Shown in pieces: positions 30,561 to 61,787 of a stretch of DNA of 64,000 bases. The notes beneath the pieces were generated by a model. The model was given only the letters and a program-made list of their open reading frames with translations, searched no databases and was not told the origin of the DNA. Where the stretch lies: the NCBI GenBank assembly GCA_018692925.1, contig JABHLH010000016.1, positions 19,462-83,461 on the forward strand, read 5' to 3'. Every line of letters starts with the position of its first letter. The first letter of the stretch is position 1. The position numbers and the translations under genes were made by a program. Source of the DNA: an archaeon. Lineage in GTDB: Archaea; Nanobdellota; Nanobdellia; SCGC-AAA011-G17; GW2011-AR17.

Positions 30561-30593
30561 ATAAGAAATATAAAAAGACCTATTTAAAAAACT

Positions 30594-31517: not shown

Positions 31518-31559
31518 ATTATAAAAATTAGAAACTCGGCTTTTAAATCTTATGGAAAA

Positions 31560-33101: not shown

Positions 33102-33189
33102 TTCCCATCTTTATTATGCCAAATTTAAATAATTATCGGTGCATTAATCTACTAAATCTTCAGAAACTTTATAAATCGTACAAAAAGGG

Positions 33190-41842: not shown

Positions 41843-43070
41843 AACAATTACTATTGGAATTCCTATTAACATAGAATCAGATACATTATTACATCTAGAA
41901 TCTAAATTAAAAAATTTTCTTGAAGAAACAACAATAGCATTAGCAACAGAAAATATTAATATAAGAACTTTCAGAATAAATTTAACTCCGGTTACAAATA
42001 AAGATTCAAATTTAAACTCACAAAAAATAATAGGAAAAATAGAAACTTTCTCAAACTTTGCAGAAAAATTAAACATTAGGTGGATTAACATCCCTTATGA
42101 TTTAACAGAGAACCCAAAAGAATTATCTGAACTTGCTTTTACAATATTAAAAAGATATCCTAAAACTTTTTCAAATTTAATTGTTGCAAAAGATAAAAAT
42201 ATTTCTTACAACGCAATCCCAATAGCTAGTAAATTCATAAAAGATGTTTCAAAATTAGACAACTCTGGATACAATAATTTTAGAGTAGGGGTTTCTTGCA
42301 ACATCAAAGCAAATACTCCATTCTTCCCATACACTTACAGTTCAGAGGAATTAGGAATCTCAACAGGGTTAGAGTTACCAAAAGAATTCATAAAGATAAT
42401 CAACTCTTCAGAGAATAGAGATCTAATCTCATTAAGAGAAGAAATAATAACAAAGATTTCTCCTGAGGTAAACAAAATAAACAATATCCTTTCAGTTTTA
42501 GCAAAAAAACATTTCATTAAATACAATGGGATTGATTTTTCCTTAGCTCCTTATCCTGAAAAAGGTAGCAGTGTTGCAGAATTAATTGAGCTTTTAGGTT
42601 TAGAACAACTTGGCAGCAATGGAACATTGTTCTTAACTTCATACTTAACTGACATATTAAAAGAAATACAAAAAAGAAACAACACTCCAACAACAGGCTT
42701 CAATGGTGTAATGTTTTCTTTATTAGAAGATGAACAACTAGGCTTAAGAAACAACAACAAGTTATTTTCAATTGATTCATTAATTTCATATTCAGCAGTT
42801 TGCGGATGTGGTTTAGACATGATTCCTTTACCAGGAGATATTTTCGAAGAAGAGCTTAACTCAATAATCTTAGATGTAGCTGCCTTATCAACAACCTTAG
42901 ACAAACCTTTAGGAGTAAGAGTATTACCAATTCCAACAAAGCAAGAAAATGAATTCACAACCTTTAACATGGATTTTTTATTCAACACAAGGGTCAAAAA
43001 ACCTAAAAACTTAAGTTTATCAAACAGATTATTAACAAATACAAAATTTTCATATTTAAAATGGCAATAG
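41817..43070 (+). CDS. UPF0210 (DUF711) family protein
   Basis: MDLRTITIGIPI matches the UPF0210 N-terminal DIRTITMGISL. C-terminal CGCGLDMIPLP and GVRVLPIP match SVGLDMIAIP and RIIP of the family. The true start may be the Met at 41832. Confidence 0.7.
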   Translation: MRKQKMDLRTITIGIPINIESDTLLHLESKLKNFLEETTIALATENINIRTFRINLTPVTNKDSNLNSQKIIGKIETFSNFAEKLNIRWINIPYDLTENPKELSELAFTILKRYPKTFSNLIVAKDKNISYNAIPIASKFIKDVSKLDNSGYNNFRVGVSCNIKANTPFFPYTYSSEELGISTGLELPKEFIKIINSSENRDLISLREEIITKISPEVNKINNILSVLAKKHFIKYNGIDFSLAPYPEKGSSVAELIELLGLEQLGSNGTLFLTSYLTDILKEIQKRNNTPTTGFNGVMFSLLEDEQLGLRNNNKLFSIDSLISYSAVCGCGLDMIPLPGDIFEEELNSIILDVAALSTTLDKPLGVRVLPIPTKQENEFTTFNMDFLFNTRVKKPKNLSLSNRLLTNTKFSYLKWQ

Positions 43071-44476
43071 ATTTGAAGGAAGTAAAAAACTTTTGGGAAA
43101 AGCGAGCAGAACAACATAGTGACAACCAAGGTATTACTAACTTAGAAGAAAATAATAAATTAAGAAAATTAAAAACAGAGTTAGAAGAAAATAAAGTTGA
43201 TGAATATCTTCCTCAATTACAAAACAAAACAATTCTAGATTTAGCTGGAGGATATGGTAGATGGGCATTTAGATTTACAAAAAAAGCAAAAGAAGTACAT
43301 GTTGTAGACTATTGTTATGATTTAATTGCTTTAGGAAAAAAGAAATCTAAAGAACAAGGAATAAACAACATCAAATATTTTCAAGCATCAGCTCAGGATT
43401 ATGATAGTAAAACTAAATATGATATTATTTTCATCTCTGGTCTTTTAATTTACTTAAACGATGAAGACCTAAAAACTTTAGGAGAAAAGATTAGACAATA
43501 TTCTCATGAAAACACAAAAGTCATTTTAAGAGATGGAACTGGTATCAAAGGAAGATTTGAAATTAACAGAAGATTCTCTGAAGCTTTACAAACTTATTAT
43601 AGCGCAACTTACAGAACTCCAGAACAATACATTTCTTTCTTCAAAAGCATTGGTTTTGAAATTGTAAAACAAGACAATATGTTTGAAGAAGGTTGTGAAT
43701 TAAATAAATTCCCTGAAACAAGATTAAAAATTTACAAATTTAATAAAAAAACTACAAAAAAAGAAAAGAAAAAGCTTTCATTAAAAGAAATCAGAGAAGG
43801 TAAACATATCAAAGAAGGATTATACACAGACATTCTAAGAGTCCCTCATGTTACACTTACATACTTAATTGTTCACGCAATCAAAGACACAAAGATTACT
43901 CCAAACCAAGTAACTTTATTCAGTATGATTTTACTATTAATTGCAACATATTTCTATGCTGGTGGAACTTATGTATATGCTTTAATTGCTTCTTTACTTT
44001 ACTATTTATCTTTCGTTTTCGACACTGTTGATGGAAATTTAGCAAGACAAAAAGAGATGTGTTCACCTCTTGGAGGCTGGTATGATAAAATAGCTGACAG
44101 AATAATGAATCCAATTTTATTCTTTGCAATAGCTTGGGGTATTTACTTAAACAATCCTTCAGTTTATGTTTGGATTTGGACTTTCACAGCTTTTGCTGTA
44201 TTAGAATTCTCTGTAATAGTACAATATAATTTTAGAGTAATGTTTAATTTTGGAATGGACGAAGTAAAAAAGGAAAGAAAGAAAAGAGGATGGCTAAAAG
44301 AATTTATGTTAAACGACTTTTTCTTATGTCACAGTATAATTCTATTTAGTATTTTTGGCATCTTAGAATACTACATGATATTCTTCACACTATATGGAGG
44401 ATTATTTGACATTGCAATGGTTACAGTAATGACATACAAAGCTAAAAAACATCTCAAAAATGAAAACAGACCTTAA
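43061..44476 (+). CDS. Fusion of a class I SAM methyltransferase (N-terminal) to a CDP-alcohol phosphatidyltransferase (C-terminal, polytopic)
   Basis: N-terminal motif I is ILDLAGGYGRW. The C-terminus has a perfect CDP-OH-PT signature, DTVDGNLARQKEMCSPLGGWYDKIAD (D-G-x2-A-R-x8-G-x3-D-x3-D), followed by TM helices. Confidence 0.8.
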   Translation: MAIDLKEVKNFWEKRAEQHSDNQGITNLEENNKLRKLKTELEENKVDEYLPQLQNKTILDLAGGYGRWAFRFTKKAKEVHVVDYCYDLIALGKKKSKEQGINNIKYFQASAQDYDSKTKYDIIFISGLLIYLNDEDLKTLGEKIRQYSHENTKVILRDGTGIKGRFEINRRFSEALQTYYSATYRTPEQYISFFKSIGFEIVKQDNMFEEGCELNKFPETRLKIYKFNKKTTKKEKKKLSLKEIREGKHIKEGLYTDILRVPHVTLTYLIVHAIKDTKITPNQVTLFSMILLLIATYFYAGGTYVYALIASLLYYLSFVFDTVDGNLARQKEMCSPLGGWYDKIADRIMNPILFFAIAWGIYLNNPSVYVWIWTFTAFAVLEFSVIVQYNFRVMFNFGMDEVKKERKKRGWLKEFMLNDFFLCHSIILFSIFGILEYYMIFFTLYGGLFDIAMVTVMTYKAKKHLKNENRP

Positions 44477-45512: not shown

Positions 45513-46599
45513 ACTTTTCAGCTTCTTTTTTTCTAGAAAAATTATCAACAGCTAAAGAATGTAAATTAGAAAATTTCTTCAATTCACTTCCATCATTAAC
45601 AAGTCTTTTCATTAGAACTTGAAAATCTTCCTGACTCTTCAAAACATATCCTAATTTATTATTCTTAACAAACTTTGACATAATCCCAACATCATTCACT
45701 AATGTAGGTACATTCATTGAACAAAACTCATAAACTGACACAGGAATGGATTCATTAATTTCAGCATCTCTAAATATGAAACCTAAATCCATAGAGGATA
45801 AAATCCTTGGAAGATTTTCATGCTTAACAAAACCATGATCAACAAAATTAACATTCCTTTCTTTTAATTTTTTAAGAATTTTCTTCTTACATCTACCATC
45901 ACCAATTAAATTCAAAGTCACATTAAATCTAGGAACAACATTCAAAATCCAATGGAACCTATCTTTCTCAGAATAATTACCAAGATAAACTAACTGCAAA
46001 CTACTTTTCTTCTTTTTTCCTTTAGGACTAAACATTTTCACATCTACTCCATTAGAAACCACATGAACATTATCTAATTCAGAAATAGAATTCTTTATTC
46101 CTTTATTTGCAACAGTAATCAAATCTGCTAATTTAAAACTTACATTCAAAAATCCTCTCACAAAATAATTTTTAACAAAAGCACCTAAACCTTCTGCTAC
46201 AAGTCTGGGGAAAAAATGTTTAAAATAGGAGTCATATCTCAAAAACTCAAATGAGTCTCTAATATCTAATACAACTTTCTTACTCAACAATTTAACCAAG
46301 GGAAAACTTAACAAAGTTTCGTACTTAGGAATTGAAACAACAACAAGATCATATCTTTTAAACAAGGTTAAAGAAACAGACTTTATATTCATTTTAATTA
46401 AAAACCAGATAAATGCAAACAAATTACTCTCTGAAGGCCTATGAATTAAATGCCAACCTCGCCTATGAATCTTTTCACTTGATCCACCAAGAATTTCAAC
46501 TTTACAATCTTTAAACTCTTTTACAAAAGAATTAATCCTAACTGCAGGAGCTCCTTTCACAGGATAAAAATCTTCCAAAATAAACAATACTTTTTTCAT
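45490..46599 (-). CDS. GT4-type (Glycos_transf_1) glycosyltransferase
   Basis: The C-terminal half has the GT-B pattern (...EFCSMNVPTLVNDVGIMSKFV...GYVL). Length is 369 aa. Confidence 0.65.
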   Translation of the reverse strand: MKKVLFILEDFYPVKGAPAVRINSFVKEFKDCKVEILGGSSEKIHRRGWHLIHRPSESNLFAFIWFLIKMNIKSVSLTLFKRYDLVVVSIPKYETLLSFPLVKLLSKKVVLDIRDSFEFLRYDSYFKHFFPRLVAEGLGAFVKNYFVRGFLNVSFKLADLITVANKGIKNSISELDNVHVVSNGVDVKMFSPKGKKKKSSLQLVYLGNYSEKDRFHWILNVVPRFNVTLNLIGDGRCKKKILKKLKERNVNFVDHGFVKHENLPRILSSMDLGFIFRDAEINESIPVSVYEFCSMNVPTLVNDVGIMSKFVKNNKLGYVLKSQEDFQVLMKRLVNDGSELKKFSNLHSLAVDNFSRKKEAEKFKSLVLN

Positions 46600-48284
46600 T
46601 TTAGCTCATACAATACAAAATCTCCTTCTCTTCTTAAAATATCATAATTTAAATTATCATCCATTGAAACTAAATAATCATAACCTTCAACATCATAAGG
46701 ATCTCCAACCCTAATTTCTTCATTCACCCAAAAACCAAATAGTGACCACTCATTTCTTACATTAAACAACTCTTCATTTAAAGTATATTTAGTTAATTTA
46801 TCAGAAACAAATCTTTCATCAAGCAAAACATTCCCTTCTACATTTTCATTAAACCAATGTCCTAACTCTGCTTGATCAGAACCATTCCAATAATGTTCAG
46901 CATTAAAAGAGATCAAACAAAAGCTCACAACTGTAGTCAAAATAATAAATCCAACTCCTAGATAAAATACTAAATTTCTATTATTTCTAAATAATATTAA
47001 AGTATAAGGAATAATAAACAACACACATGCAATTACAATAAATGGCAACCAAGTAAACTCCATAAATATTTGCCCATAAAATAACCATTCTAAAAATAAA
47101 TCGAACACACCCAATAAAGATAAAGTCATATTATTGAAAGGATATAAAGCTGCAATTGTCAATTGCGTACCTAATAATAAAATCAAAGAACTTAATCCTA
47201 TTGCGAATTTAATAAATTTCTCTTTAAACTCAAATCTTTCAAAAGCAATGTACCCAACTAATAACACCAAAGATAACGTCATATCAAAATATCGACCTAT
47301 TGGTCTATTTGAAAACAAAGGAAAAAATGGAGAGTTATAAAGTAAATCACTTCCATTTGCTTGATTAGCAATAACTAAAACATTAACGATAAAACTGATT
47401 CCTGTAATCATATACAACAACCTAAAATCTTTATCTTTAACTTTCAATCCAAGTAAGAAATAAAACCCAAAAATAAATCCAGTAGCAATCAAAGCATAAG
47501 CAAAATACAAAGCAATCCAATTAAAAAATCCTAAAGGGTTAGCCATAAAGTTCCCCATAAAAGCTAAAGGTCCGCCATAACCACCAGTTACTGCCATTGC
47601 TGAACCACCATATGTACCAACATTTCTAAAGAAAATAGGAATCACACAAATCAAAGCAAATGCATAATGCCAAATTAAATTTACAAACTTTGTTTTTCTA
47701 AACAACCAAACAACAAAAACAACTGGAATTAAAACTAAAGCTAAAACTCTAACCCAATATGCTAAAGCTAAAATAATTCCTGAGATTAAAAACAACCATT
47801 TATTATCAGTTTTGAAAGCAAAATAAACTACTAGCACAAAAAGCATAAACAACGGATAAAAAATATTTTCAGACATTAAATAAGCAAACACATTAAAATT
47901 TGCTGCAAAGATAGAAACTAAAAATGCACCAATAAAAGCTTTTCTTGAATCTAAAAAATCTCTTGCTAAATAGTAAACTGGAAAAATAATAACTGATGAA
48001 AGAAATGCATTAACAAGTTTCATAACAAAATATACAACTTCCATATTTGAAAAGAAATATCCTACAGATAATAACAAAGGATACAAAGGCAGATATTTAT
48101 GTGCTAAAACATCCCCATGATACAAGCTAGAACCATATTCAAAGAGATTTCTAGCTATTTTGGAATAAAGGTACTCATCTCCTAAAGCACTTGGAGAATT
48201 AATAAAAAATCCTAATATTACTTTCCCCAAAACAAATGCTAAATATAATAAGATTAGCTTCTTTAATTCTTTATTAAAAAACAT
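46596..48284 (-). CDS. GT-C fold polytopic glycosyltransferase (ArnT/PMT-like)
   Basis: 562 aa with more than 12 TM helices. A first-loop GDEYLYSKIARNLFEYG motif gives the DE motif position of GT39/GT83. Confidence 0.55.
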   Translation of the reverse strand: MFFNKELKKLILLYLAFVLGKVILGFFINSPSALGDEYLYSKIARNLFEYGSSLYHGDVLAHKYLPLYPLLLSVGYFFSNMEVVYFVMKLVNAFLSSVIIFPVYYLARDFLDSRKAFIGAFLVSIFAANFNVFAYLMSENIFYPLFMLFVLVVYFAFKTDNKWLFLISGIILALAYWVRVLALVLIPVVFVVWLFRKTKFVNLIWHYAFALICVIPIFFRNVGTYGGSAMAVTGGYGGPLAFMGNFMANPLGFFNWIALYFAYALIATGFIFGFYFLLGLKVKDKDFRLLYMITGISFIVNVLVIANQANGSDLLYNSPFFPLFSNRPIGRYFDMTLSLVLLVGYIAFERFEFKEKFIKFAIGLSSLILLLGTQLTIAALYPFNNMTLSLLGVFDLFLEWLFYGQIFMEFTWLPFIVIACVLFIIPYTLILFRNNRNLVFYLGVGFIILTTVVSFCLISFNAEHYWNGSDQAELGHWFNENVEGNVLLDERFVSDKLTKYTLNEELFNVRNEWSLFGFWVNEEIRVGDPYDVEGYDYLVSMDDNLNYDILRREGDFVLYELK

Positions 48285-51656: not shown

Positions 51657-52370
51657 ATGGACAAAGAGTATGAACAAGACTACTTCAAGCAAGAAAAAGA
51701 ACATTGGTGGTTTCGAGCAAGAAGAGATTTAATAAAAAGAATAAAAATCTCTCCAGATGCTAAAATCTTAGAAGTTGGCTGTGGTTCAGGATTAAATTTA
51801 AAAGAATTCTCAAATAAAGAAAAAATAGGATTAGATATTTCTCAAGATGCTGTTGACAAAGCTCAAGAATACAATATTGATGCAATTCAAGGTGATCTAA
51901 ACAAAGATTTACCTTTTGAAAAAGAATCATTTGATTTAATTTTAGCTTTAGATGTGATTGAACATTTAGAAGATGAAAAAGAAGCAATAAAAAAACTTTC
52001 AGAATTATTAAAAGAAAATGGAAAATTAGTAATAAATATTCCAGCTTTTCAATTTTTATGGTCGGAACATGATGTTTTAAACCAACACAAAAAAAGATAC
52101 ACAAAGAAAGAAATAGAAAAATTCACAAAAGATTTCCTAAAAACTCAAACATTAACTTATTGGAATTTCACCTTACTTCCAGTAGTTTATTCAGTAATTA
52201 AAATTAACAAAATTCTAAAAAGAAAAGATTCAAACATTCAAGAGACTAGTCCAATTGTAAACAAAATCTTATTAAACATTTTAAAAATTGAAAATTATTT
52301 AATTCATAACAGAATATTCTTCCCTTGGGGAGTCTCTGTTTTCTACATAGGAAAAAAAAGATCTTCATAA
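51657..52370 (+). CDS. Class I SAM-dependent methyltransferase
   Basis: Motif I is ILEVGCGSGLNL and the post-II motif is DLILALDVIEHLED. Confidence 0.8.
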   Translation: MDKEYEQDYFKQEKEHWWFRARRDLIKRIKISPDAKILEVGCGSGLNLKEFSNKEKIGLDISQDAVDKAQEYNIDAIQGDLNKDLPFEKESFDLILALDVIEHLEDEKEAIKKLSELLKENGKLVINIPAFQFLWSEHDVLNQHKKRYTKKEIEKFTKDFLKTQTLTYWNFTLLPVVYSVIKINKILKRKDSNIQETSPIVNKILLNILKIENYLIHNRIFFPWGVSVFYIGKKRSS

Positions 52371-52404: not shown

Positions 52405-53868
52405 ATGAAAAAATCTGACAAGATATTCCTTATTCCCATAATATTATTTAGTTTAAACTTAATCTACAGATTAATAGATACTGCTAAAATTATCAAATAT
52501 TTCCCTTTAGACTATACAAATGATTTAGCTTCTTATGTAGCTCAACTAAGTTTTTTAGATGCATATGGTCTTTTTGCAAATGTTCCAAATTGGTATAATG
52601 GATTCATTTTATTCCAAGCATCAGCTCCAGGTTGGGCTTTATTCACTTTGCCAATATTAAATCTAACAAACAACATAATGCTTTCAACTTACTTATCAAT
52701 AATTTTACTATACATTTTAGCTTTCATTTCAATTTATTTAATTGGTAAACACATCAAAATTTCAAAAATTAAAACTATAGCTCTTTACTTATTCATTTTT
52801 GCAAATCCTATGGCAATTGGAGGATTCTTAAAACAAGGTAGACTTCCAGAACTAACTGCTTTCGTAGTTTTCATATACATATTTTATCTAGCTTTATACT
52901 ACAAAGACAATCCTATCGACTGGAAAATCTTATTTTTAGCTCCATTATACACTTTCTTAATAATTTCTCATCAACCAGAAACAGTTCTAGGATCAACTTT
53001 TTTATTAGGTTTAATCCTTACTAAAAATTTCAAAGAGAACATAAAAATCATTTCAACATTAATCTTAGGAACTCTACTTTCTTCTTTCTGGCTAATACAA
53101 TTTCTACAAGCATACACACAACTAAATTTAATAGATCAAGAATTTGGGCTTTGGTTATTAGATTTTAACAGTTTCTTAATTAGCAACTTAATATTAACTG
53201 GATTAACTATTGCTCTTCTTGGACTATTTTATTTCTACCAGAAAGATAAGAAAGATTTTCTTTTCTTCTTACCAACATTAACCTTAGCTTTTTTAGTTTT
53301 AACAAGATTAATTACTTTCATTCCAATATACAAAGAGATTTATCCTGATCCTTGGACTAATTTCTTAATTCTATTCACTTCATTTTTCCTAGTATCATTG
53401 AATTACAACAAAATTTCAAAGAAAATAAAAACTTATCTTTTAATCGTCTTAGCTTTAGCAGCAATAGCTGCAATCTCTTACAACATGTTATTCACACCTT
53501 TCTTTCAAGATTACACACAAACAGAATATGACATCCTAGCAGTTATGCCAGACATTGAAGAAAGATTTTTAATATTAGGGTCTCAATCAATAGAATCTTC
53601 ATATCCTCAAGCTTACTATTCTTATGCAGCTTTAATAAACAAAAACACAGCTTCAGGCTGGTCTGATTGGTCAAAGGACAAAGATTACATCAACTTAATT
53701 ACAAACATAGGTTTTACAGAAGACTGTGACAAACTTGTTGAAGGATTAAATGAATTAAATGTATTAGAAATTATTGCTTTGAATGAAGATTGTACATACT
53801 TAACAAACACTTGTAATTTCCAAGAGAAAACAACTTCAAATCAAGCTTGTTTACTTAGCATAGAATAA
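52405..53868 (+). CDS. Polytopic integral membrane protein, candidate glycan polymerase/ligase or GT-C enzyme
   Basis: 487 aa with ~12 TM helices and a C-terminal soluble domain. No WWDYG (AglB) motif is present. Confidence 0.45.
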   Translation: MKKSDKIFLIPIILFSLNLIYRLIDTAKIIKYFPLDYTNDLASYVAQLSFLDAYGLFANVPNWYNGFILFQASAPGWALFTLPILNLTNNIMLSTYLSIILLYILAFISIYLIGKHIKISKIKTIALYLFIFANPMAIGGFLKQGRLPELTAFVVFIYIFYLALYYKDNPIDWKILFLAPLYTFLIISHQPETVLGSTFLLGLILTKNFKENIKIISTLILGTLLSSFWLIQFLQAYTQLNLIDQEFGLWLLDFNSFLISNLILTGLTIALLGLFYFYQKDKKDFLFFLPTLTLAFLVLTRLITFIPIYKEIYPDPWTNFLILFTSFFLVSLNYNKISKKIKTYLLIVLALAAIAAISYNMLFTPFFQDYTQTEYDILAVMPDIEERFLILGSQSIESSYPQAYYSYAALINKNTASGWSDWSKDKDYINLITNIGFTEDCDKLVEGLNELNVLEIIALNEDCTYLTNTCNFQEKTTSNQACLLSIE

Positions 53869-54174
53869 CCAACTAAATAAATCTATTAAAAAATCCCCAC
53901 TAAACTCAGGAGCAAAACTCAAACAATCTTTACAACTAACTTCTTCTTTCTCTTCTAAAACTAAAACCCCCCATTCAACTTCATTATAATCTCTAAGATT
54001 ATCTCTCACTTCTAAATTCTCTTCAATTTCTTCACTAACACAAATACTTTCTTCACACCAAGAATCCTCAGAAAACAAATTACAAGAATCATCACTTTCA
54101 CAATTAATTATTAATTCACCACTAACAAAACTTACTAATAAAATAAGCATTACAAACAAAACTATCAACCTCAT
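53851..54174 (-). CDS. Small secreted Cys-containing acidic protein
   Basis: It has a signal peptide (MRLIVLFVMLILLVSFVSG). No motif recognised. Confidence 0.4.
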   Translation of the reverse strand: MRLIVLFVMLILLVSFVSGELIINCESDDSCNLFSEDSWCEESICVSEEIEENLEVRDNLRDYNEVEWGVLVLEEKEEVSCKDCLSFAPEFSGDFLIDLFSWLFYAK

Positions 54175-54207
54175 AGTATAAATAATAAATAAAAGAATTA
54201 ATAAACT

Positions 54208-54972
54208 TTATTCTTCTTGTTTTTCTTCAGAATCATCACTTTCTTCTTTTTTATCTTCAACAGGCTCTTCTTTCTCTTCTTCTGTCTCTTCTTTCTCTTC
54301 TTTCTCTTCTTCTTTTGTCTCTTCTTTTGTCTCTTCTTTCTCTTCTTCCTTTGTCTCTTCTTTCTCTTCTTCTTTCTCTTCTTCTTTCTCTTCTTCCTTT
54401 GTTTCTTCTTCTTTCTCTTCTTTCTTCTCTTCTTTAATCTCTTCACTACTATCTGCACTTCTCAAAACAAATACTGCAATAACAACTACAATTAAAATTC
54501 CTAAGAAAGCTAACAAATAATTTTTCCAATCAACATTACTCTCTTCATCTTCATCAACAACTAATCCTGTTACTATATTATCATCCACAACATTAACTTC
54601 ATCTGCAACTTGTAAAACTAAATGAACTTCACCATCAGCAGCTACTGTATAAAGAGCTACATTCAAGTCATTATAACCATCTTTATCTAAATCAACTTTC
54701 ATAATAGTATCTAATGTTACTATTCCTGGCCAAGCATTAGTAATTTCATCATGTATAAATGGAACAACATCAAACTTTGCTCCAGTTGTAGTAACTTCTT
54801 CTACAATCAATGAATGCTCTCCATCTAATAACTCAAATCTTACTTCATCATCTTCATAAAGATAAATTGCTTGAGAATTTTGTCCTTCAAAACTTACATC
54901 ATAACTATTTCCAGCTAAAACAAAAGAAAAGCTCAATAAGATCATTAAACCGAATATAATTTTCCATCTCAT
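54208..54972 (-). CDS. Type I membrane/secreted protein with an E/K-rich low-complexity C-terminal tail
   Basis: A signal peptide is followed by a ~150-aa beta-rich ectodomain, then a TM helix (LLAFLGILIVVVIAVFVL). An ~85-aa (EEK/EET)n tail follows. The alternative frames 54198..54458(-) and 54217..54495(+) are artefacts of the same repeat. Confidence 0.65.
   Translation of the reverse strand: MRWKIIFGLMILLSFSFVLAGNSYDVSFEGQNSQAIYLYEDDEVRFELLDGEHSLIVEEVTTTGAKFDVVPFIHDEITNAWPGIVTLDTIMKVDLDKDGYNDLNVALYTVAADGEVHLVLQVADEVNVVDDNIVTGLVVDEDEESNVDWKNYLLAFLGILIVVVIAVFVLRSADSSEEIKEEKKEEKEEETKEEEKEEEKEEEKEETKEEEKEETKEETKEEEKEEKEETEEEKEEPVEDKKEESDDSEEKQEE
54215..54470. repeat. Low-complexity (TCTTCT/TCTTTC)n microsatellite-like DNA encoding the E/K tail
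   Basis: Visible tandem tcttctttctcttc units run over ~250 nt. Confidence 0.6.
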
Positions 54973-55042: not shown

Positions 55043-58000
55043 TTACTTCTTTTTAGCAATAAAAAACCATGCAATTCCTGCTACAATCCCTAAGGCTAAT
55101 ACTAATCCTACCCACCAGTAAGACTTTTGTTCAACACCTTCATTCTCAAGCCAACCTTCTAATTTTGTTAAGGTTAGATCAACTGTACCATCTTCATTAA
55201 TTGCATTTAGTGCTACTTCAAAGTCATCTGTTCCATCGCTATCAATATCTAAGTTTCTACTTTCACCAACATAAACAGTTAATTCTTGAGGCTCGCTTGC
55301 AAACAGTAAAACAACAAATTGTTCTTCAGTATTCACTTCACTTAAGGTCACTGAATGAGCTTCTTCTGTACCTTCACTTGTTGTAAAAGTCATTTCAATA
55401 ACATCACCAAGAACAGCTGTAGAATATTCTAAAATTCCTGTTTCTTCCCAGCTACTTTCTTCTTCTAAAATAACAGCTGCAGTAATCTCTTCAATAACTT
55501 CTTCTTCAACTTCTTCAACTTCTTCTTCTTCCTCTTCTTCTACTTCAGGAGCATAACTAGCACTTGATCCTCCACTTGATCCACTTGAACTTGAACTGCC
55601 TGAACTTATACTAACACTAAAACTAGTTGAATCAGCTGCTGAATTCCCATAAACATCAGTTACAGTACATCTTACATTATATGTTCCTGCAAGAGAAGCA
55701 GTATCAGTATATGTTGCACTTGCAGATGTTGTTTGTGTTACATATGAGCCACTTGGTTGTTGTACATCTATTACATATGAAATATCTCCACCTAAATTAT
55801 CTGTAGCTCCACATGCTAAAGAAACTGATTCTCCACCATTAATTGAAGTTGGTGAAGCAGATACTGCTATTGCACTAGGTGCTGTTGTATCTACTGTTAC
55901 ATTTCTAGTTTCTGTAAAATTAATTTGATTAGCTACATCAGTCACAGTTACATTAAATTGATAATAACCATCTCCTAATCTTGAAAAGTTTACAAAACTT
56001 ACATTTGTATCTGTCACAACAGTTTTATTTACAAAGGAACTATTTACTAAAGTAAAAGTTACATTTGCTAAATTTGTTTCAGTTAAATTTACTCTTACAA
56101 AAATAGCATTACTTGTTAGATTTGTATTATTTGCAACAGAACTTGCATGTAAATCAATATTAGGGAAAGTTCGATCTACAATAATGATTCCATTAACACT
56201 AGTATTACGATTACCCATTCTATCAGTTGCAGTTACATTAAATGTATAGTTTCCTTCAGGAAAATTTCCAGCTTTAGTATCCATTAGTGTAAAGTTTAGA
56301 TATGTCAAATTACTATCTCCAATTTCATCTGATATAACAGTTGTATTAATCACACCAGTTGTATTTCTAAAATTAAAAGTTAAGTTAATCAAATTTGATT
56401 CAACAATACTCACATTTACAAAAATAGATGTACTATTAGTTCCACTAGCTCCTGCAACAGCAGAACCATGTGTATAAGAAACAACAGGTAATGTTGGATC
56501 ATAGAAGAAAGTTCTAACTGCAATTTGTTTTGAATTTGAAGCCCTATCTAAAATAGTCACATTAAATGTATAATTTCCATCTACCAGATCTGTAAAATTT
56601 GTATAAGGTGTTGACCATTCAGATACAGCTGTATTATTTGCATAAGTTGAATAATCAATTGTACTTAATTTAAATGTCAAGTTACCTAAATTTTGTTCAG
56701 TAAAAGTCATATTAAAAAAGGCATAAGCTGTTGAAACATTACTATTATTAGCAACAGTAGTTGCAGCATGATAATCTCCAGAAGGAGGTAACGCATCTAT
56801 AATAATAGTCCTTGAACTTTTATGCTTCTGATTTTCAGCTCTATCAGTAGCAGTTATATTAAAAGTATAATTTCCATTAGGTAAATTTCCAGCTTTAGAA
56901 TCTATTTGTGTAAAATTTATTGCTTTTGTTGCACCATCACCTAGAGTATCTGATAATACTGAAACATTAGTTGAACCTGTTGTATTTGTCAGCCTAAAAG
57001 TTAGATTAATTAAATTTGCATCAGCAACACTAGCCTTTACATATATATAATCCGCACTAACAAAAGCCTCATTAGGTTGAACTGTAGGATGATAACTAAG
57101 ACTTGGAAGAGTGCTATCTATTAAAAAATTTCTAATTCCTGAAATATTCTGATTACTCGCCCTATCTAACATTGTAACATTAATTGTATAATTACCCTCT
57201 GCAAAACCACTCTCACCAACTAAACTAGAAAAATTAAGATAGGGTGTTGACCATTCTGATACTACAGTTGTATTCATAGCACTATATGAAACAGGTGCAA
57301 CTCTAAATGTCAAATTAGCAAAATTTGCATCAGTATAACTCATATTAATAATAAAAGAATTACTTGAGATATTACTATTATTGATAAGAGTAGCTGCTTG
57401 ATAATCAATCTGAGGTATAAAAGAATCTAGAATCACTAATCTATTTGTAGTTATGTTACTATTAGTTGCATTATCCCAAATGGTTGCATTTAAAGTATAA
57501 TTAGCCTCTACTAAAGGATTTCCAGAATCTATACTACTTAAATTAAAAGTAAAAGTACTTTGATCAGAGATTACAGTTGTATTTATTGCACCCGAAAATG
57601 GATCAAATGCAGTAAAAGTTAAATTTGCTCTATTAACTTCAGTATAGGTTACTTCAAAGAAAAATGAATTTGTATTAATATAAGCATCATCAGGATAATT
57701 AGTTAAACTACCCCAATCAATAAGAGGCACTGTATTATCAATTGTAAAGGTTCTATTTTCAGCAGTATAGTTTGTTGTAGAACCATTTGTTGCTTGAAAA
57801 TAAAATATAAATTCACCATCAGGATAAGCAGAAATTGCAGAAGCTAAAGCTGTACTAGAATCAGTACCATTTGCTATAAAAAGAGGACCACCAGAAGCAC
57901 CACCATCAATCATGAATATAGCTTCGTATGTTGCATTAGTACCATTAATATTAAAATCAAAAGAAGGTTCACCACCAGAATTAGGACCAAAAAAACTATT

Positions 58001-58198
58001 ATTATCAGGAGCAATAAAATGCAACCTAAATTCGGTATTACTTTCTGCCACAACAAATGACAAAAATAGCAATGTAAATATTACGACTAAAACAACTAAA
58101 AATGATTCATGGATTCCTCTTTTTTTAAACATACCACATACACCTCTTATCACTATATAATATTCATAAGATTTATAAAGCTTTTCAAAGCGCAACAT
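55043..58198 (-). CDS. Large surface protein with repeated Ig-like modules, an acidic stalk and a C-terminal TM anchor. It is a candidate S-layer glycoprotein.
   Basis: Length is 1051 aa, with an N-terminal signal/TM segment. A ~90-100-aa module is repeated more than 6 times, each with ANLTF, NTTVVSE, GNYT.NVT and DxTxP boundaries. There are dozens of N-x-S/T sequons. A PEVEEEEEEEVEEVEEE acidic stretch is followed by a C-terminal TM (WWVGLVLALGIVAGIAWFFIAKKK). Confidence 0.8.
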   Translation of the reverse strand: MLRFEKLYKSYEYYIVIRGVCGMFKKRGIHESFLVVLVVIFTLLFLSFVVAESNTEFRLHFIAPDNNSFFGPNSGGEPSFDFNINGTNATYEAIFMIDGGASGGPLFIANGTDSSTALASAISAYPDGEFIFYFQATNGSTTNYTAENRTFTIDNTVPLIDWGSLTNYPDDAYINTNSFFFEVTYTEVNRANLTFTAFDPFSGAINTTVISDQSTFTFNLSSIDSGNPLVEANYTLNATIWDNATNSNITTNRLVILDSFIPQIDYQAATLINNSNISSNSFIINMSYTDANFANLTFRVAPVSYSAMNTTVVSEWSTPYLNFSSLVGESGFAEGNYTINVTMLDRASNQNISGIRNFLIDSTLPSLSYHPTVQPNEAFVSADYIYVKASVADANLINLTFRLTNTTGSTNVSVLSDTLGDGATKAINFTQIDSKAGNLPNGNYTFNITATDRAENQKHKSSRTIIIDALPPSGDYHAATTVANNSNVSTAYAFFNMTFTEQNLGNLTFKLSTIDYSTYANNTAVSEWSTPYTNFTDLVDGNYTFNVTILDRASNSKQIAVRTFFYDPTLPVVSYTHGSAVAGASGTNSTSIFVNVSIVESNLINLTFNFRNTTGVINTTVISDEIGDSNLTYLNFTLMDTKAGNFPEGNYTFNVTATDRMGNRNTSVNGIIIVDRTFPNIDLHASSVANNTNLTSNAIFVRVNLTETNLANVTFTLVNSSFVNKTVVTDTNVSFVNFSRLGDGYYQFNVTVTDVANQINFTETRNVTVDTTAPSAIAVSASPTSINGGESVSLACGATDNLGGDISYVIDVQQPSGSYVTQTTSASATYTDTASLAGTYNVRCTVTDVYGNSAADSTSFSVSISSGSSSSSGSSGGSSASYAPEVEEEEEEEVEEVEEEVIEEITAAVILEEESSWEETGILEYSTAVLGDVIEMTFTTSEGTEEAHSVTLSEVNTEEQFVVLLFASEPQELTVYVGESRNLDIDSDGTDDFEVALNAINEDGTVDLTLTKLEGWLENEGVEQKSYWWVGLVLALGIVAGIAWFFIAKKK

Positions 58199-58233: not shown

Positions 58234-59319
58234 ATGAAACAAAAAACTATCACAGTATTTTTATGGAAAGATCTCAAACATCCTTACGCAGGTGGCTCAA
58301 TTGTTTATGCATTTAATCAAGCAGAACATTGGATCAAACAAGGTTACAGAGTTATTTTTCTTTGTCCTAGATTTAAAGGTTCAAAAAAATATGAAAAAAT
58401 AAATGGTTGCCATGTTTTCAGATCTGGAGGAAAATTTTCAAATTACATAACCCTCCCATATTTATACTTAACAAAATTCAAAAAACATACTGATTACATT
58501 TTAGATGTAGAAAATGGTACACCATATTTCACCCCATTATTTTCAAACAAACCAAAAGCAATGCTTCTACTTCATGTTCACAAAGATGTTGTTTTCAAAG
58601 AACTTCCTTTTTATTTAGCTTGGATGCCTTATTTTGCAGAAGTTTATTTGATGCCAATCATTTACAGAAACACTCCTTTAGTTGCAATTAGTAAATCTAC
58701 AAAAAAAGGTTTTGAAAAGTTAGGATTCAAATCAAAAAATTTCACATTAAGTTACTGTGGCTTTGATCAAAAAAGTGCAAAACCAAAAACAAAATTCAAA
58801 AACCCAACAATATTATACTTAGGTAGAATTGAAAAATATAAAAGAATTCAATTACTAATTGAGATGTTTGAAAAATTAAATTATCCTAATTCAGAATTAA
58901 TAATTGCAGGTGGAGGAAGATACTTACCTGAAATTAAAAAAAGAGTTAAAAATTCTCCTCTAAAAAATAGAATTAAAATTTTAGGAAAGGTTTCAGAAGA
59001 AGAAAAATTTAATCTTTATGCTAAGTCTTGGATTTATGCTTCAGCTTCAAGTGCAGAAGGTTGGGGAATAACTGTTATTGAGGCAAATGCTTGTAACACT
59101 CCAGCAGTTTCTTTTAACACTGCAGGATTAAATGAATCTATTCAACATAAAACAAACGGATTAATAGCAAACACAAAATCAGAGTTCATTACAAACATGA
59201 AAAAAATTCTTGACAAAAAAATAAAATTCCCAAAATTAAAAGAATATGCTTCACAGTTTACTTGGGAAAATTCTGCAAAAAAAACATTAGAAGCTTTAAC
59301 TAAACAACTTCATAAATAA
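58234..59319 (+). CDS. GT4 glycosyltransferase
   Basis: GT-B C-terminal domain (GRIEKYKRIQLLIEMF, ...ASSAEGWGITVIEANACNTPAVSFNTAGLNESI). Confidence 0.85.
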   Translation: MKQKTITVFLWKDLKHPYAGGSIVYAFNQAEHWIKQGYRVIFLCPRFKGSKKYEKINGCHVFRSGGKFSNYITLPYLYLTKFKKHTDYILDVENGTPYFTPLFSNKPKAMLLLHVHKDVVFKELPFYLAWMPYFAEVYLMPIIYRNTPLVAISKSTKKGFEKLGFKSKNFTLSYCGFDQKSAKPKTKFKNPTILYLGRIEKYKRIQLLIEMFEKLNYPNSELIIAGGGRYLPEIKKRVKNSPLKNRIKILGKVSEEEKFNLYAKSWIYASASSAEGWGITVIEANACNTPAVSFNTAGLNESIQHKTNGLIANTKSEFITNMKKILDKKIKFPKLKEYASQFTWENSAKKTLEALTKQLHK

Positions 59320-60796
59320 CAACTATAGGTTGAGTTTCTGCTTCATCATAATAGAATATTGCTTTTTGTACAAACTGATCTCCTCTTGAAACAATTTCTT
59401 CAAATGCACAATCAGAAGTAAAAGCATCTGCCACTAAATACTTCGGATCATACTTTTCTATTACTTCATCCATCAAACTGACATCCATCCCGAAGGCATA
59501 ACCTTGTCTTTCAGCATAAGCTTGATAAACAACTACATAGCTACAAGCAACAAAATTATCTTCTAATTCCATATTTTCACTTAACCAATCACCAGCTTCT
59601 CTTTGCTGTTGAAACGAAGAACTACTTCCACCAATAGCTGCTTCAGCATAACTTAATTGTGCAAAAGCAAAGTAAGCTAACAACAATATAATCAAAATCA
59701 CAGAAAGATATTTAGCTTCTTTACTTTTTTCAGCAATATTTTTATCAATAACATCTTTCAACCAAAGTAAACCTTTACCTAAAAAATAAAACAATGCAAT
59801 AAATGCAGGAAACATATATCTTTGTTCTACATGTACAATTTCAATCCCTAAAGCAATAGGTACTATTAGTAACCAACCTAAAAATAAAACATCAAAATCT
59901 AACTTTTTTGTTTTTCTATTCCAAATTAAATCTAAAGAAAGTCCAACATCAATCAAACTTTTAATTAAACCTATCAAAAAGAAGATCATCATTCCTGTTA
60001 GAGCAACAGCTGGAAACACTTTAAAGAACCCTAAAATCCCAAAATCATATCCTTCTTCAATTTGTCCAGTCCCATGATATTGTATTAAACCAAATAATGG
60101 ATCTCCATGAACAATATAAGACCATAACAGCCAAGGTGCTAAAGCTAAAACGAAGGCTAAAACTCCATACCAAAAATTCTTATCTTTAAACATATCAAAC
60201 TTTTTTGTGAAAAATAAATAAACTAAAAATAGTGGAATAAGATACAATGGAATATAAAAACTCATAACAGCTAATGCAGTAAAAACTCCAGCCAACACAG
60301 AATCCTTCCAATTACTATTTTTACAACACCTGACAAAGAAATACATGGCCATTACACTAAACAACAAAGCAGCTTCATCTAATACAATTCTTATTGAAAA
60401 GAAAATATGTATCCAAGATATTGCAAGTAAGGCTGCCATAATCAAACCTAAATTTTTACTATGTGCTTCTTTACCTAATAAATATACAAACAATATTGTT
60501 AACACTGAAATCAAAACTTGAAAAAACTTTATAGAATACTCACCACCACCTAAAAATAAAATCGACCCCCATATTGCAGGCATTAATACAGGCCTTCTTT
60601 CAGCTACACCTTCTGGGTCTTCTAAATCATCAAAAGCTATACTTTCAGCTCTCAACAAATATTCCCCTTCATCATACCAAAGACCTTGATCAGAATATTC
60701 AGTCAAATAATCAAACCTTACAAAGAAAGCAAACACTAATATCAACAATAATAAAATTAGATGCCTATTTTGCCAAAGCTTCTCCTTCATACCCAT
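59300..60796 (-). CDS. GT-C fold polytopic glycosyltransferase (GT39/GT83-like)
   Basis: 498 aa with more than 10 TM helices. The first extracytoplasmic loop has WYDEGEY, the conserved DE motif of ArnT/PMT-type GT-C enzymes. Confidence 0.6.
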   Translation of the reverse strand: MGMKEKLWQNRHLILLLLILVFAFFVRFDYLTEYSDQGLWYDEGEYLLRAESIAFDDLEDPEGVAERRPVLMPAIWGSILFLGGGEYSIKFFQVLISVLTILFVYLLGKEAHSKNLGLIMAALLAISWIHIFFSIRIVLDEAALLFSVMAMYFFVRCCKNSNWKDSVLAGVFTALAVMSFYIPLYLIPLFLVYLFFTKKFDMFKDKNFWYGVLAFVLALAPWLLWSYIVHGDPLFGLIQYHGTGQIEEGYDFGILGFFKVFPAVALTGMMIFFLIGLIKSLIDVGLSLDLIWNRKTKKLDFDVLFLGWLLIVPIALGIEIVHVEQRYMFPAFIALFYFLGKGLLWLKDVIDKNIAEKSKEAKYLSVILIILLLAYFAFAQLSYAEAAIGGSSSSFQQQREAGDWLSENMELEDNFVACSYVVVYQAYAERQGYAFGMDVSLMDEVIEKYDPKYLVADAFTSDCAFEEIVSRGDQFVQKAIFYYDEAETQPIVVIYEVV

Positions 60797-60878: not shown

Positions 60879-61787
60879 ATGAAGCTAAGCATTATAATCC
60901 CAGCATATAATGAAGAAGACAATATTCTTCCCTTGTACAAAGAAATCCTAAAAAATATTCCCAAAAAATATTCTTACGAAATAATTTTCATTGATGATGG
61001 AAGCACAGATTCCACATTAAAAAATATCAAAGCAATTAAAGACAAAAACATTAAATCCATCTCTTTCAGAAAAAACTTTGGAAAGGCTGAAGGACTAAAC
61101 ACTGGTTTCAAAGAAGCAACTGGAGACATTATTATTACAATGGATGCTGACTTACAAGATAATCCAAAAGAAATTCCAAATTTTATTAAAAAAATTAATG
61201 AAGGTTACGATTTAGTTTCAGGTTGGAAATACAACCGATTAGATCCTTTAGGAAAAAGAGTACCTTCAAAATTATTCAACAAACTAACAAGAATTTTAAC
61301 AAGAGTTAATTTACACGATTTCAACTGTGGTTTCAAAGCTTACAAAAAAGAAGTTGCAAAATCATTAAAACTTTATGGAGAGATGCACCGTTACATTCCA
61401 GCAATGGCTTCTTGGCAAGGTTTCAAAGTTGGAGAAATCAAAGTGGATCATAGAGAAAGAGTACATGGAGTTAGTAAATATGGTTGGGAAAGATTGATCA
61501 AAGGTTTACTTGATCTTTGTACAATAACATTTCTAGGTTCATACCAAAGAAGTCCTTTACATTTATTTGGTACAATTGGTTTAGCTGCAACTGCAGAAGG
61601 AATTTTAATTGGTACTTATTTAACAATAAAATGGTTTGAAGGATATCCTCTTAGCAACAGACCTTTATTATTATTAGCAGTTTTGCTAATTGTTTTAGGA
61701 ATACAAATTTTATCTTTAGGTTTAATTGCAGAAATGATTAATTATAATAAATATTACAAAGAGAACGGTTCTAAAATAAAGAACTAA
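60879..61787 (+). CDS. GT2 glycosyltransferase with C-terminal TM helices (DPM-synthase-like)
   Basis: Motifs are LSIIIPAYNEE, IIFIDDGSTDST and MDADLQDNP. There are two C-terminal TM helices. Confidence 0.85.
   Translation: MKLSIIIPAYNEEDNILPLYKEILKNIPKKYSYEIIFIDDGSTDSTLKNIKAIKDKNIKSISFRKNFGKAEGLNTGFKEATGDIIITMDADLQDNPKEIPNFIKKINEGYDLVSGWKYNRLDPLGKRVPSKLFNKLTRILTRVNLHDFNCGFKAYKKEVAKSLKLYGEMHRYIPAMASWQGFKVGEIKVDHRERVHGVSKYGWERLIKGLLDLCTITFLGSYQRSPLHLFGTIGLAATAEGILIGTYLTIKWFEGYPLSNRPLLLLAVLLIVLGIQILSLGLIAEMINYNKYYKENGSKIKN

What the first reader, a model, noticed from the sequence alone, without database searches (positions are those of the whole stretch)
55043..58198. 1051-aa sequon-saturated surface protein encoded inside the glycosylation island, a candidate S-layer glycoprotein and glycan acceptor
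The protein has more than 6 repeated ~95-aa modules, each carrying several N-x-S/T sequons (for example NTTVVSE, NLTF, GNYTFNVT). A poly-Glu stalk, a C-terminal TM and a basic anchor follow. It is flanked by GT4, GT2 and GT-C genes and by the E/K-tailed protein. Co-localising an acceptor with its modifying machinery is a strong functional clue for the whole island.
Basis: seen in the sequence. Interest (0 to 1): 0.55.

Follow-up and report, generated by a model that had tools for sequence, protein, structure and literature searches.

The report
Sugar-coated surface rod of a DPANN archaeon
This gene encodes a membrane-anchored, rod-like surface protein of a tiny marine Woesearchaeota (DPANN) archaeon whose Ig-like repeats are packed with strongly conserved N-glycosylation sites; it is a real but fairly ordinary kind of archaeal surface glycoprotein, and nothing yet shows that it is the S-layer.

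Summary
ORF 55043..58198 (-) exists, but the real start is M23 (58132), giving 1029 aa.

- **Sequons:** 58 observed against 22.6 +/- 3.9 expected from composition (z about 9). The reverse motif is not enriched. All lie in aa 66-766.
- **Selection:** a 69%-identical orthologue keeps 56 of 57 sequons, while the ectodomain evolves 3-8 times faster (dN/dS 0.34-0.50) than the flanking glycosyltransferase genes (0.04-0.11).
- **Repeat number:** another strain lacks exactly two repeats.
- **Cassette:** the gene is directly followed by a short sequon-free partner in all six lineages checked. The partner shares the novel membrane-proximal domain. A small Cys-rich secreted protein follows in four of them. 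Glycan genes lie nearby in five of the six.
- **Missing enzyme:** the window has no AglB. The adjacent GT-C is PMT_2/ArnT-like, not an oligosaccharyltransferase.

Most likely this is an N-glycan-shielded, type-I-anchored envelope protein. An S-layer lattice role and a host-adhesin role both remain open.

The parts
55043..58132 (-). Corrected gene for the surface glycoprotein (1029 aa; the ORF as listed extends to 58198)
   Evidence: orthologues start at MFKKRG; promoter-like elements lie inside the first 22 codons of the ORF
58172..58179 (-). TATA-box-like TTTATAAA about 40 nt upstream of the ATG at 58132; a GGTG lies at 58141..58144
   Evidence: read from the sequence; the promoter role is inferred
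58043..58132 (-). Signal peptide (MFKKRGIHESFLVVLVVIFTLLFLSFVVA|ES)
   Evidence: hydropathy maximum at the N-terminus; 97% identical in the orthologue; cleavage is inferred
57731..58042 (-). Divergent N-terminal (distal) module R0 with 7 sequons; the fastest-evolving part (52% identity, dN/dS 0.50)
55877..57730 (-). Six Big_13/BIg-type Ig-like repeats R1-R6 (96-108 aa each) carrying 51 sequons
55616..55876 (-). PKD-like domain with two invariant Cys; no sequons
   Evidence: (a weak PKD match, below the Pfam cutoff)
55487..55615 (-). Ser/Gly-rich linker (possible O-glycosylation region) followed by a poly-Glu stretch
55151..55486 (-). Uncharacterised 112-aa all-beta membrane-proximal domain with a DxDxDG loop, shared with the downstream short protein; no sequons
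55043..55150 (-). Juxtamembrane segment, C-terminal TM helix, KKK tail and stop codon
54208..54972 (-). Short partner: signal peptide, the same beta domain, a TM helix and a long acidic E/K cytoplasmic tail; 0 sequons. It lies directly downstream of the long gene in every lineage examined
53851..54174 (-). Small (107 aa) secreted Cys-rich acidic protein, the third gene of the cassette
58234..59319 (+). GT4 glycosyltransferase, divergently transcribed from the glycoprotein gene
   Evidence: adjacency kept in L001-L004 and L006
59300..60796 (-). GT-C membrane glycosyltransferase of PMT_2/ArnT type (not STT3/AglB)
60879..61787 (+). GT2 whose best matches are ArnC/PgfS/AglJ-type polyprenyl-phosphate sugar synthases (below the curated cutoffs)
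52405..53868 (+). PTPS_related polytopic membrane protein; recurs near the cassette in relatives

Best explanation
The gene encodes a type-I membrane-anchored, rod-like cell-surface glycoprotein of a marine Woesearchaeota/'Nanoarchaeota' (DPANN) archaeon.

Proposed mechanism (inferred unless marked otherwise):
1. The chain is exported by the Sec system.
2. It is N-glycosylated by an AglB encoded elsewhere in the genome, at about 58 sequons. These lie mostly on the solvent faces of beta-strands in seven distal Ig-like modules.
3. The result is a dense glycan coat on a rod estimated at about 30 nm.
4. The sequon-free PKD-like domain and a novel DxDxDG-loop beta domain stay next to the membrane. 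There they probably contact the same domain of the co-encoded short partner protein.
5. A C-terminal TM helix with a KKK tail holds the rod in the membrane.

Shown here: the domain architecture, the sequon excess, the sequon conservation against a fast-evolving protein surface, the repeat-number polymorphism, the conserved gene cassette and its glycan-gene neighbourhood.

Inferred: actual glycosylation, the partner interaction, and the physiological role. That role would be a protective or identity-defining glycan coat, which may or may not be organised as an S-layer.
For: - **Architecture and fold:** Big_13 scores 75.6 bits against a cutoff of 27. The only PDB sequence hit is SiiE BIg 50-52. 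The repeat model has 8 strands (pLDDT 68.5), and its best Foldseek hits are SiiE BIg and then FN3 domains.
- **Sequon excess:** 58 observed against 22.6 +/- 3.9 expected; the reverse motif is not enriched. Every module R0-R6 is enriched on its own, while the PKD-like domain and the C-domain have none.
- **Selection on sequons:** 56 of 57 are kept in P0002 and 42 of 42 in P0003. Sequon Asn is 98% conserved and the S/T class 100%. The comparison values are 69% for other Asn, 61% for other S/T class, 58% for other residues and 67% for the middle residue.
- **Conserved sequon positions:** five repeat positions carry a sequon in 24-28 of 28 repeats. That includes 10-12 of the 12 repeats taken from 26-36%-identical proteins.
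- **Exposure:** the middle residue of the sequon is hydrophobic in 37 of 58 cases, and 8 of 10 sequons in R5 lie in predicted strands.
- **Fast-evolving exposed surface:** dS is equal across genes (0.5-0.9). dN/dS is 0.34 for the target (R0 0.50, repeats 0.37, C-domain 0.14) against 0.04-0.11 for the flanking GT genes.
- **Repeat polymorphism:** P0003 lacks exactly R2 and R3.
- **Cassette and context:** the short partner is directly downstream in the window, L001-L004/L007, L005, L006, L008 and L009. Glycan genes flank it in five of the six lineages (the L009 contig is too short to tell).
- **C-domain family:** it splits cleanly into long sequon-rich proteins (3.4-6.8 per 100 aa) and short sequon-free proteins with acidic tails.
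Against: - No AglB/STT3 gene and no WWDYG motif occur in the 64-kb window. The N-glycosylation capacity of this genome is assumed, not shown.
- There is no proteomic, glycoproteomic or expression evidence.
- The repeat model has only moderate confidence (pLDDT 68.5).
- The partner interaction rests only on a shared domain (32% identity; BLAST E = 8e-5 for that single comparison) and on conserved adjacency.
- The C-domain has no significant structural relative, so its function is unknown.
Confidence: 0.7

Rival explanations
1. It is the S-layer glycoprotein proper: the major, lattice-forming envelope protein of this archaeon, anchored by its own C-terminal TM helix.
For: - It has a signal peptide, a large acidic ectodomain built of Ig-like domains, heavy predicted N-glycosylation, a Ser/Gly linker near the membrane and a C-terminal TM. 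These are generic traits of archaeal S-layer glycoproteins.
- The membrane-proximal domains are sequon-free and more conserved, so they could make lattice contacts.
- No S-layer protein has been experimentally determined for DPANN archaea, and the candidates proposed are Ig-like-fold glycoproteins (bioRxiv 10.1101/2023.10.27.564410).
Against: - It matches no known S-layer family in Pfam, NCBIfam or PDB.
- Repeat number differs by two modules (about 200 aa) between close strains and ranges from 1 to 6 across the family. That is awkward for a fixed lattice.
- The PKD + C-domain + TM module also carries unrelated ectodomains (P0061, P0081), so it looks like a general anchor.
- Woesearchaeota metatranscriptomes list genes already annotated as S-layer proteins among the top expressed genes (PMC11606122). 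That suggests other candidates exist.
- Expression level and lattice formation were not testable.
Confidence: 0.27
2. It is a host- or substrate-attachment adhesin of an episymbiotic DPANN cell. A SiiE-like rod of BIg domains would present a variable distal recognition module, with repeat number setting its reach.
For: - The closest solved structure by both sequence and fold is the giant adhesin SiiE.
- The distal module R0 is the most divergent part (52% identity, dN/dS 0.50), while the anchor is conserved.
- The repeat-number polymorphism is typical of adhesins.
Against: - No recognisable ligand-binding domain (lectin, peptidase or similar) is present at the tip.
- The tip itself carries 7 sequons, so it would be glycan-covered.
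- No host is known for this lineage.
- Fast evolution and repeat variation are equally expected for any exposed envelope protein under phage or grazer pressure.
Confidence: 0.25
3. The adjacent GT2 (polyprenyl-phosphate sugar synthase type) and PMT_2 GT-C pair O-glycosylates the protein's Ser/Thr-rich regions, or trims and extends its glycans outside the cell. The local 'acceptor plus machinery' link would then be O-linked or a post-transfer decoration, not N-glycan transfer.
For: - The best NCBIfam matches of GT2 60879..61787 are ArnC, PgfS and AglJ.
- PMT_2/PMT matches the GT-C 59300..60796.
- The protein is 22.5% Ser+Thr and has an SSGSSSSSGSSGGSS linker.
- The GT2 - GT-C - GT4 - target order is kept in L001-L004, and GT-C - GT4 - target in L006.
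Against: - All GT matches are below the curated family cutoffs, so specificity is unknown.
- More distant relatives (L005, L008) keep glycan genes nearby, but not this particular pair.
- This reading does not explain the directional N-x-S/T excess. It is additional to N-glycosylation, not exclusive of it.
Confidence: 0.2
4. The N-x-S/T pattern is a structural feature of these beta-strands (polar Asn/Thr ladders) and the protein is not glycosylated.
For: - Most sequons sit in predicted strands with alternating hydrophobic residues.
- Several sequon Asn are the most conserved residues of the repeat. That could reflect a structural role.
Against: - The motif is directional: 58 N-x-S/T against 19 S/T-x-N.
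- S and T interchange freely at +2 while the class is 100% conserved, and the middle residue drifts at the background rate.
- The non-homologous module R0 is enriched as well.
- The related PKD-like and C-terminal beta domains of the same protein carry none, despite 21-32% Ser+Thr.
Confidence: 0.06

Closest known systems
[quoted passage not shown]
   Same: DPANN origin. N-terminal signal or TM segment, 4-7 Ig-like folds, many predicted N-glycosylation sites (13-49) and a C-terminal TM helix. Their role is likewise unresolved (SlaB-like anchor or other surface protein).
   Different: No sequence relationship was tested or found here. The present protein has more sites (58). It also has a defined repeat family with fixed sequon positions, a distinct C-terminal beta domain, and a co-encoded short partner that shares that domain.
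Salmonella enterica giant adhesin SiiE, BIg domains 50-52 (PDB 2yn3/2yn5); Pfam Big_13 (PF19077)
   Same: The repeat has the same fold and sequence family: the G-x-Y-T-x-x-V-x-x-x-D-x-A-x-N motif, phmmer E = 5e-5, Foldseek E = 1e-4 with TM 0.59-0.64. Both are tandem rod-forming arrays.
   Different: SiiE is bacterial, secreted by a type I system, not N-glycosylated, and has 53 domains. Here the protein is archaeal, uses a Sec signal, is anchored by a C-terminal TM helix and has 8-10 sequons per domain. Ca2+ sites between domains were not examined.
Sulfolobales S-layer anchor SlaB
   Same: Sec signal, N-glycosylated beta-sandwich domains, a C-terminal TM anchor, and a partner gene encoded next to it (from the description in bioRxiv 10.1101/2023.10.27.564410, and general knowledge).
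   Different: No coiled-coil stalk: the stalk region here is a Ser/Gly linker, poly-Glu and an all-beta domain. No sequence similarity. The neighbouring gene is a small TM protein, not a large SlaA-like canopy protein.
Haloarchaeal S-layer glycoprotein (csg) of Haloferax/Halobacterium
   Same: Chain of Ig-like domains, an acidic ectodomain, N-glycosylation, a Ser/Thr-rich membrane-proximal linker and a C-terminal hydrophobic segment (general knowledge; not tested here).
   Different: There is no PGF-CTERM motif for archaeosortase processing (the C-terminus reads ...YWWVGLVLALGIVAGIAWFFIAKKK). From memory, not checked here, csg has far fewer sequons (about 7 in about 800 aa). No sequence match in Pfam or NCBIfam.

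Membership tests
Pfam Big_13 (PF19077) bacterial Ig-like domain | Score above the Pfam gathering threshold | tested here: met
   75.6 bits against a cutoff of 27, E = 4.7e-21, 3 stretches
Pfam Big_13 (PF19077) bacterial Ig-like domain | Ig-like beta-sandwich fold | tested here: met
   The AF2 model of repeat R5 has 8 strands (pLDDT 68.5). The best Foldseek hits are SiiE BIg and then FN3 domains; confidence is moderate
Archaeal S-layer glycoprotein | Secretion signal and attachment to the cytoplasmic membrane | tested here: met
   N-terminal hydrophobic signal and a C-terminal TM helix with KKK tail, judged from sequence and hydropathy; no dedicated predictor was available
Archaeal S-layer glycoprotein | Homology to a recognised S-layer family (S-layer N/C domains, DUF1608, SlaA/SlaB, haloarchaeal csg) | tested here: not met
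   No such hit in Pfam, NCBIfam or PDB sequences. The 3u2g (DUF1608) fold hit for the C-domain is not significant (E = 0.014, TM 0.43/0.20, rmsd 11 A)
Archaeal S-layer glycoprotein | Forms a 2-D lattice and is among the most abundant cell proteins | not testable with these tools
   No expression, proteome or imaging data were available
AglB-dependent N-glycoprotein | N-x-S/T sequons in an exported region, in excess and conserved | tested here: met
AglB-dependent N-glycoprotein | An oligosaccharyltransferase (AglB/STT3, WWDYG motif) encoded in the genome | tested here: inconclusive
   None in the 64-kb window; the rest of the genome could not be read
AglB-dependent N-glycoprotein | Glycan attached to Asn | not testable with these tools
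   Needs glycoproteomics
PGF-CTERM / archaeosortase A substrate | PGF motif preceding the C-terminal TM helix | tested here: not met
   The C-terminus reads QKSYWWVGLVLALGIVAGIAWFFIAKKK and contains no PGF
SlaB-type S-layer anchor | Coiled-coil stalk between the beta-sandwich domains and the TM helix | tested here: not met
   The region 862-1016 is a Ser/Gly linker, poly-Glu and an all-beta domain with a single 7-residue helix
Giant BIg adhesins (SiiE-like) | Tandem BIg domains forming a rod | tested here: met
Giant BIg adhesins (SiiE-like) | Demonstrated ligand or host binding; interdomain Ca2+ sites | not tested
   No binding domain was recognised; Ca2+ sites between repeats were not analysed

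The most novel reading that the evidence does not exclude
The conserved three-gene cassette would be the core of a so-far undescribed Woesearchaeota envelope architecture. Its genes are the glycan-coated Ig-rod, a short TM partner that shares a novel DxDxDG-loop membrane-proximal domain and carries a polyanionic cytoplasmic tail, and a small Cys-rich secreted protein. The shared domains would assemble, possibly through Ca2+, into a membrane-proximal layer, and the hypervariable glycosylated rods would form the outer coat. In effect this would be a new type of archaeal S-layer or glycocalyx for a phylum with no characterised cell envelope.
Probability: 0.2. Interest if true: 0.65.

Novelty: new member of a known kind. 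Interest (0 to 1): 0.4.

Why it matters
Woesearchaeota and related DPANN archaea are abundant and uncultivated, and their cell envelopes are unknown.

- **A candidate envelope component.** This protein family has fixed glycosylation sites on a fast-changing protein surface and a variable repeat number. That makes it a concrete candidate for proteomics and cryo-ET.
- **A prediction for the glycan island.** The island would supply the glycan for these sequons through an AglB encoded elsewhere.
- **A visible signature of glycan shielding.** The contrast between invariant sequons and a rapidly diverging surface is a sequence-level signature of selection for a glycan shield in an archaeon.
- **An unannotated module.** The shared C-terminal domain and its short partner are a conserved module that current databases do not name.

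None of this overturns current ideas: heavily N-glycosylated Ig-like surface proteins with C-terminal anchors are expected in archaea.

Tried and rejected
- **Self-BLAST for repeats:** it returned only the identity alignment. Repeats were delimited by motif and HMM instead.
- **Word-index homology search with the C-terminal 169 aa:** it returned nothing, not even the protein itself. The exhaustive representative search was used instead.
- **Profile search with the repeat alignment:** it gave only four fragments.
- **The search for related loci with the nine-member alignment A3:** It was rerun with the three orthologues.
- **Fold search of the C-terminal domain:** no significant PDB relative. 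The DUF1608 S-layer hit was rejected as noise. Pfam on 39 family members gave only weak FG-GAP matches in 6 of them.
- **AglB in the window:** searched by Pfam/NCBIfam and by the WWDYG motif in all six frames; none found.
- **tRNA and Rfam scans:** empty.
- **Supplementary data of the Woesearchaeota metatranscriptome paper:** not held.
- **Single operon for the three cassette genes:** considered and not adopted. A T-tract follows the target's stop codon, and the partner has its own TATA-like box.
- **PGF-CTERM sorting and a SlaB-type coiled coil:** both considered and rejected (see the membership test).
Full report
**1. The observation**

The ORF 55043..58198 (-) of 1051 aa is real. Its first 22 codons are almost certainly not translated. 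The two close orthologues begin at MFKKRG. The stretch upstream of that ATG (58132) holds a TTTATAAA box about 40 nt away and a GGTG 9 nt away. The gene is therefore 55043..58132, 1029 aa.

The window has about 29% G+C. It also encodes CDC48, family-B DNA polymerase, FEN1, Trm5/TYW2 and HerA, so the organism is an archaeon. The only genome hits are a 'Nanoarchaeota archaeon' MAG from 150 m depth in the Black Sea and a 'Candidatus Woesearchaeota archaeon' MAG. This is a marine DPANN archaeon.

**2. Anatomy (ORF numbering)**

- Signal peptide: 23-52.
- Divergent N-terminal module R0: 53-156.
- Six clear repeats R1-R6: 157-774. Each is 96-108 aa, and they are 30-55% identical to one another. R2 resembles R4 and R3 resembles R5, which implies duplication of a two-module unit.
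- PKD-like module with two invariant Cys: 775-861.
- Ser/Gly linker: 862-885.
- Poly-Glu: 886-904.
- TM helix and KKK tail.

The repeats pass the Pfam threshold for Big_13 (75.6 bits against a cutoff of 27). The only solved relative by sequence is the BIg 50-52 fragment of the Salmonella adhesin SiiE (E = 5e-5). An AlphaFold model of R5, built on 28 aligned repeats, is an eight-strand beta-sandwich of moderate confidence (pLDDT 68.5). Its best structural matches are again SiiE BIg, followed by FN3 domains.

**3. Are the sequons more than chance?**

Yes. There are 58 N-x(not P)-S/T sites against 22.6 +/- 3.9 in shuffles that keep the composition (z about 9; the maximum of 5000 shuffles was 37). 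The mirror motif S/T-x-N occurs 19 times, about as expected.

Every one of R0-R6 is enriched on its own, with 6-11 observed against 2.2-3.6 expected. The PKD-like and C-terminal domains have none, although they are 21-32% Ser+Thr.

No other ORF in the window comes close. Three other secreted proteins have zero sequons, so this is not a general property of this organism's exported proteins.

**4. Are the sequons functional?**

The sequence evidence is strong, although indirect.

- Against the 69%-identical orthologue P0002, 56 of 57 alignable sequons are kept. Against P0003, 42 of 42 are kept.
- Sequon Asn is 98% conserved and the S/T class 100% conserved, with S and T interchanging. Non-sequon Asn is 69% conserved, non-sequon S/T class 61%, other residues 58%, and the middle sequon residue 67%.
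- Across 28 repeats, five positions carry a sequon in 24-28 of them. That includes 10-12 of the 12 repeats taken from proteins only 26-36% identical. The invariant columns of the repeat alignment are essentially the sequon Asn residues plus one Pro and two Asp.
- The middle residue is hydrophobic in 37 of 58 sequons, and 8 of 10 sequons in R5 lie in predicted strands. Asn and Ser/Thr therefore point to the solvent face of the sheets.

The directional asymmetry and the S/T interchange argue against a purely structural Asn/Thr ladder.

**5. A fast-evolving surface with fixed glycosylation sites**

The comparison is between the window and the related genome L001.

- Synonymous divergence is similar for all genes (dS 0.5-0.9).
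- The flanking GT2, GT4, PMT_2 and PTPS_related genes are 88-95% identical, with dN/dS 0.04-0.11.
- The glycoprotein is 69% identical, with dN/dS 0.34.
- Within it there is a gradient from the distal end to the membrane: R0 0.50, repeats 0.37, PKD-like domain 0.31, C-domain 0.14, TM 0.16, signal peptide 0.03.

P0003 lacks exactly R2 and R3, joined in frame at the homologous ...PQID|YQA... boundary. Repeat number is therefore polymorphic. Other family members have one to four repeats.

**6. The C-terminal domain and a conserved cassette**

The 112-aa domain is 32% identical to the ectodomain of the downstream E/K-tailed protein 54208..54972. A profile of the two finds 111 representatives among 1.84 billion proteins. 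They fall into two classes:

- Long proteins: domain, TM and a short basic tail, with 3.4-6.8 sequons per 100 aa in most.
- Short proteins of 160-260 aa: signal peptide, domain, TM and an acidic tail, with about 0-1 sequons per 100 aa.

A few long members keep only the PKD + domain + TM module beneath unrelated ectodomains (P0061, P0081). The module therefore behaves as a general anchor.

The domain model is confident (pLDDT 80.7) and all-beta, but it has no significant PDB relative. Pfam gives only weak FG-GAP matches, which reflect a DxDxDG loop.

In all six lineages where downstream sequence exists, the long gene is followed directly by a short-form gene. These lineages are the window, L001-L004/L007, L005, L006, L008 and L009. 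In four of them a small Cys-rich secreted protein follows as well. A T-tract after the target's stop codon and a separate TATA-like box suggest that the partner has its own promoter.

**7. The glycan island**

From about 19.5 to 62 kb the window encodes the following:

- GDP-mannose 4,6-dehydratase and nucleotidyltransferases.
- Four GT2 and four GT4 enzymes.
- A Wzx-type flippase.
- Methyltransferases and three B12-radical-SAM enzymes.
- CDP-alcohol phosphatidyltransferases.
- Three PMT_2 GT-C proteins and a PTPS_related membrane protein.

The order GT2 - GT-C - GT4 - glycoprotein - partner - small protein - PTPS_related is kept in L001-L004, and in part in L006. More distant relatives keep different glycan genes next to the cassette: UDP-glucose dehydrogenase immediately upstream in L005 and L008, and carbamoyltransferase, methyltransferase, GT4 and PTPS_related nearby.

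The association with glycan metabolism is therefore conserved. However, the adjacent GT-C is PMT_2/ArnT-like. The adjacent GT2 best matches polyprenyl-phosphate sugar synthases (ArnC, PgfS, AglJ), below their cutoffs. No STT3/AglB gene and no WWDYG motif is present in the window. The enzyme that would use the sequons must be encoded elsewhere. The neighbouring pair may instead add O-linked or post-transfer sugars.

**8. Interpretation**

The best-supported reading (about 0.7) is an N-glycan-coated, type-I-anchored, rod-like envelope protein. Its glycosylation sites are under selection while its protein surface diversifies. Its base probably associates with the co-encoded short partner.

Whether it is the S-layer is open (about 0.27).

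- In favour are generic traits only.
- Against are the lack of any S-layer family match, the repeat-number variation, the re-use of the anchor module by other proteins, and the existence of otherwise annotated S-layer genes among highly expressed Woesearchaeota genes (PMC11606122).

An adhesin role (about 0.25) fits the SiiE-like rod and the hypervariable tip, but no binding domain is recognisable.

[quoted passage not shown] Their roles are equally unsettled (bioRxiv 10.1101/2023.10.27.564410).

**9. Verdict**

'Surface glycoprotein and likely glycan acceptor' stands on good indirect evidence. 'S-layer' and 'modified by the flanking enzymes' are not shown.

It is a new, unannotated family of a known kind of archaeal surface protein. 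The cassette and the shared domain are the most original elements. Interest is moderate (0.4).

Noticed in passing
window 7793..9154 (-) and 53851..54174 (-): A 453-aa Cys-rich, acidic secreted protein with no sequons resembles the cassette's 107-aa protein at both ends. Both start with a signal peptide followed by C-x-DD-x-C, and both end in AP...(L/V)DLF-x-WL-x-Y. This may be a shared sorting or anchoring motif. The BLAST similarity is weak (E = 0.023).
   Followed up: partly
window 54265..54444 (within gene 54208..54972): The E/K-rich cytoplasmic tail of the short partner is encoded by a 12/36/45-nt tandem array. Protein length varies between strains: 254, 240, 226 and 220 aa. ORFs 54198..54458 (-) and 54217..54495 (+) are alternative-frame and antisense artefacts of this low-complexity DNA.
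   Followed up: partly
window 51657..52370 (+): This methyltransferase is only 66% identical to its L001 orthologue (dN/dS 0.24), while its neighbours are 90-95% identical. It evolves as fast as the surface proteins, which may indicate strain-specific glycan modification.
   Followed up: no
window 26247..37407 and 28366..29082, 43061..44476: The glycan island holds three B12-binding radical-SAM enzymes (26247, 31560, 35950), two CDP-alcohol phosphatidyltransferase genes (one fused to a methyltransferase), an LPG_synthase_TM protein and a Wzx-like flippase. This suggests unusual methylated or phospho-alcohol-decorated glycans or lipids.
   Followed up: no
window 23858..25429, 46596..48284, 59300..60796, 52405..53868, 20685..22022: There are three PMT_2-type GT-C genes, a PTPS_related polytopic protein and an unassigned 445-aa polytopic membrane protein in one 64-kb stretch, yet no STT3/AglB.
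   Followed up: partly
L008 5521..5964: In one distant relative, a 147-aa gene with an archaeal class III (type IV pilin-like) signal, QGATEYLIL, is inserted between the short partner and the small Cys-rich gene.
   Followed up: no
window 11072..11650 (+): This apparently cytoplasmic 192-aa protein has 6 sequons against 1.6 expected (z = 3.8). It is the only other ORF in the window with an excess, and the excess is probably chance.
   Followed up: no
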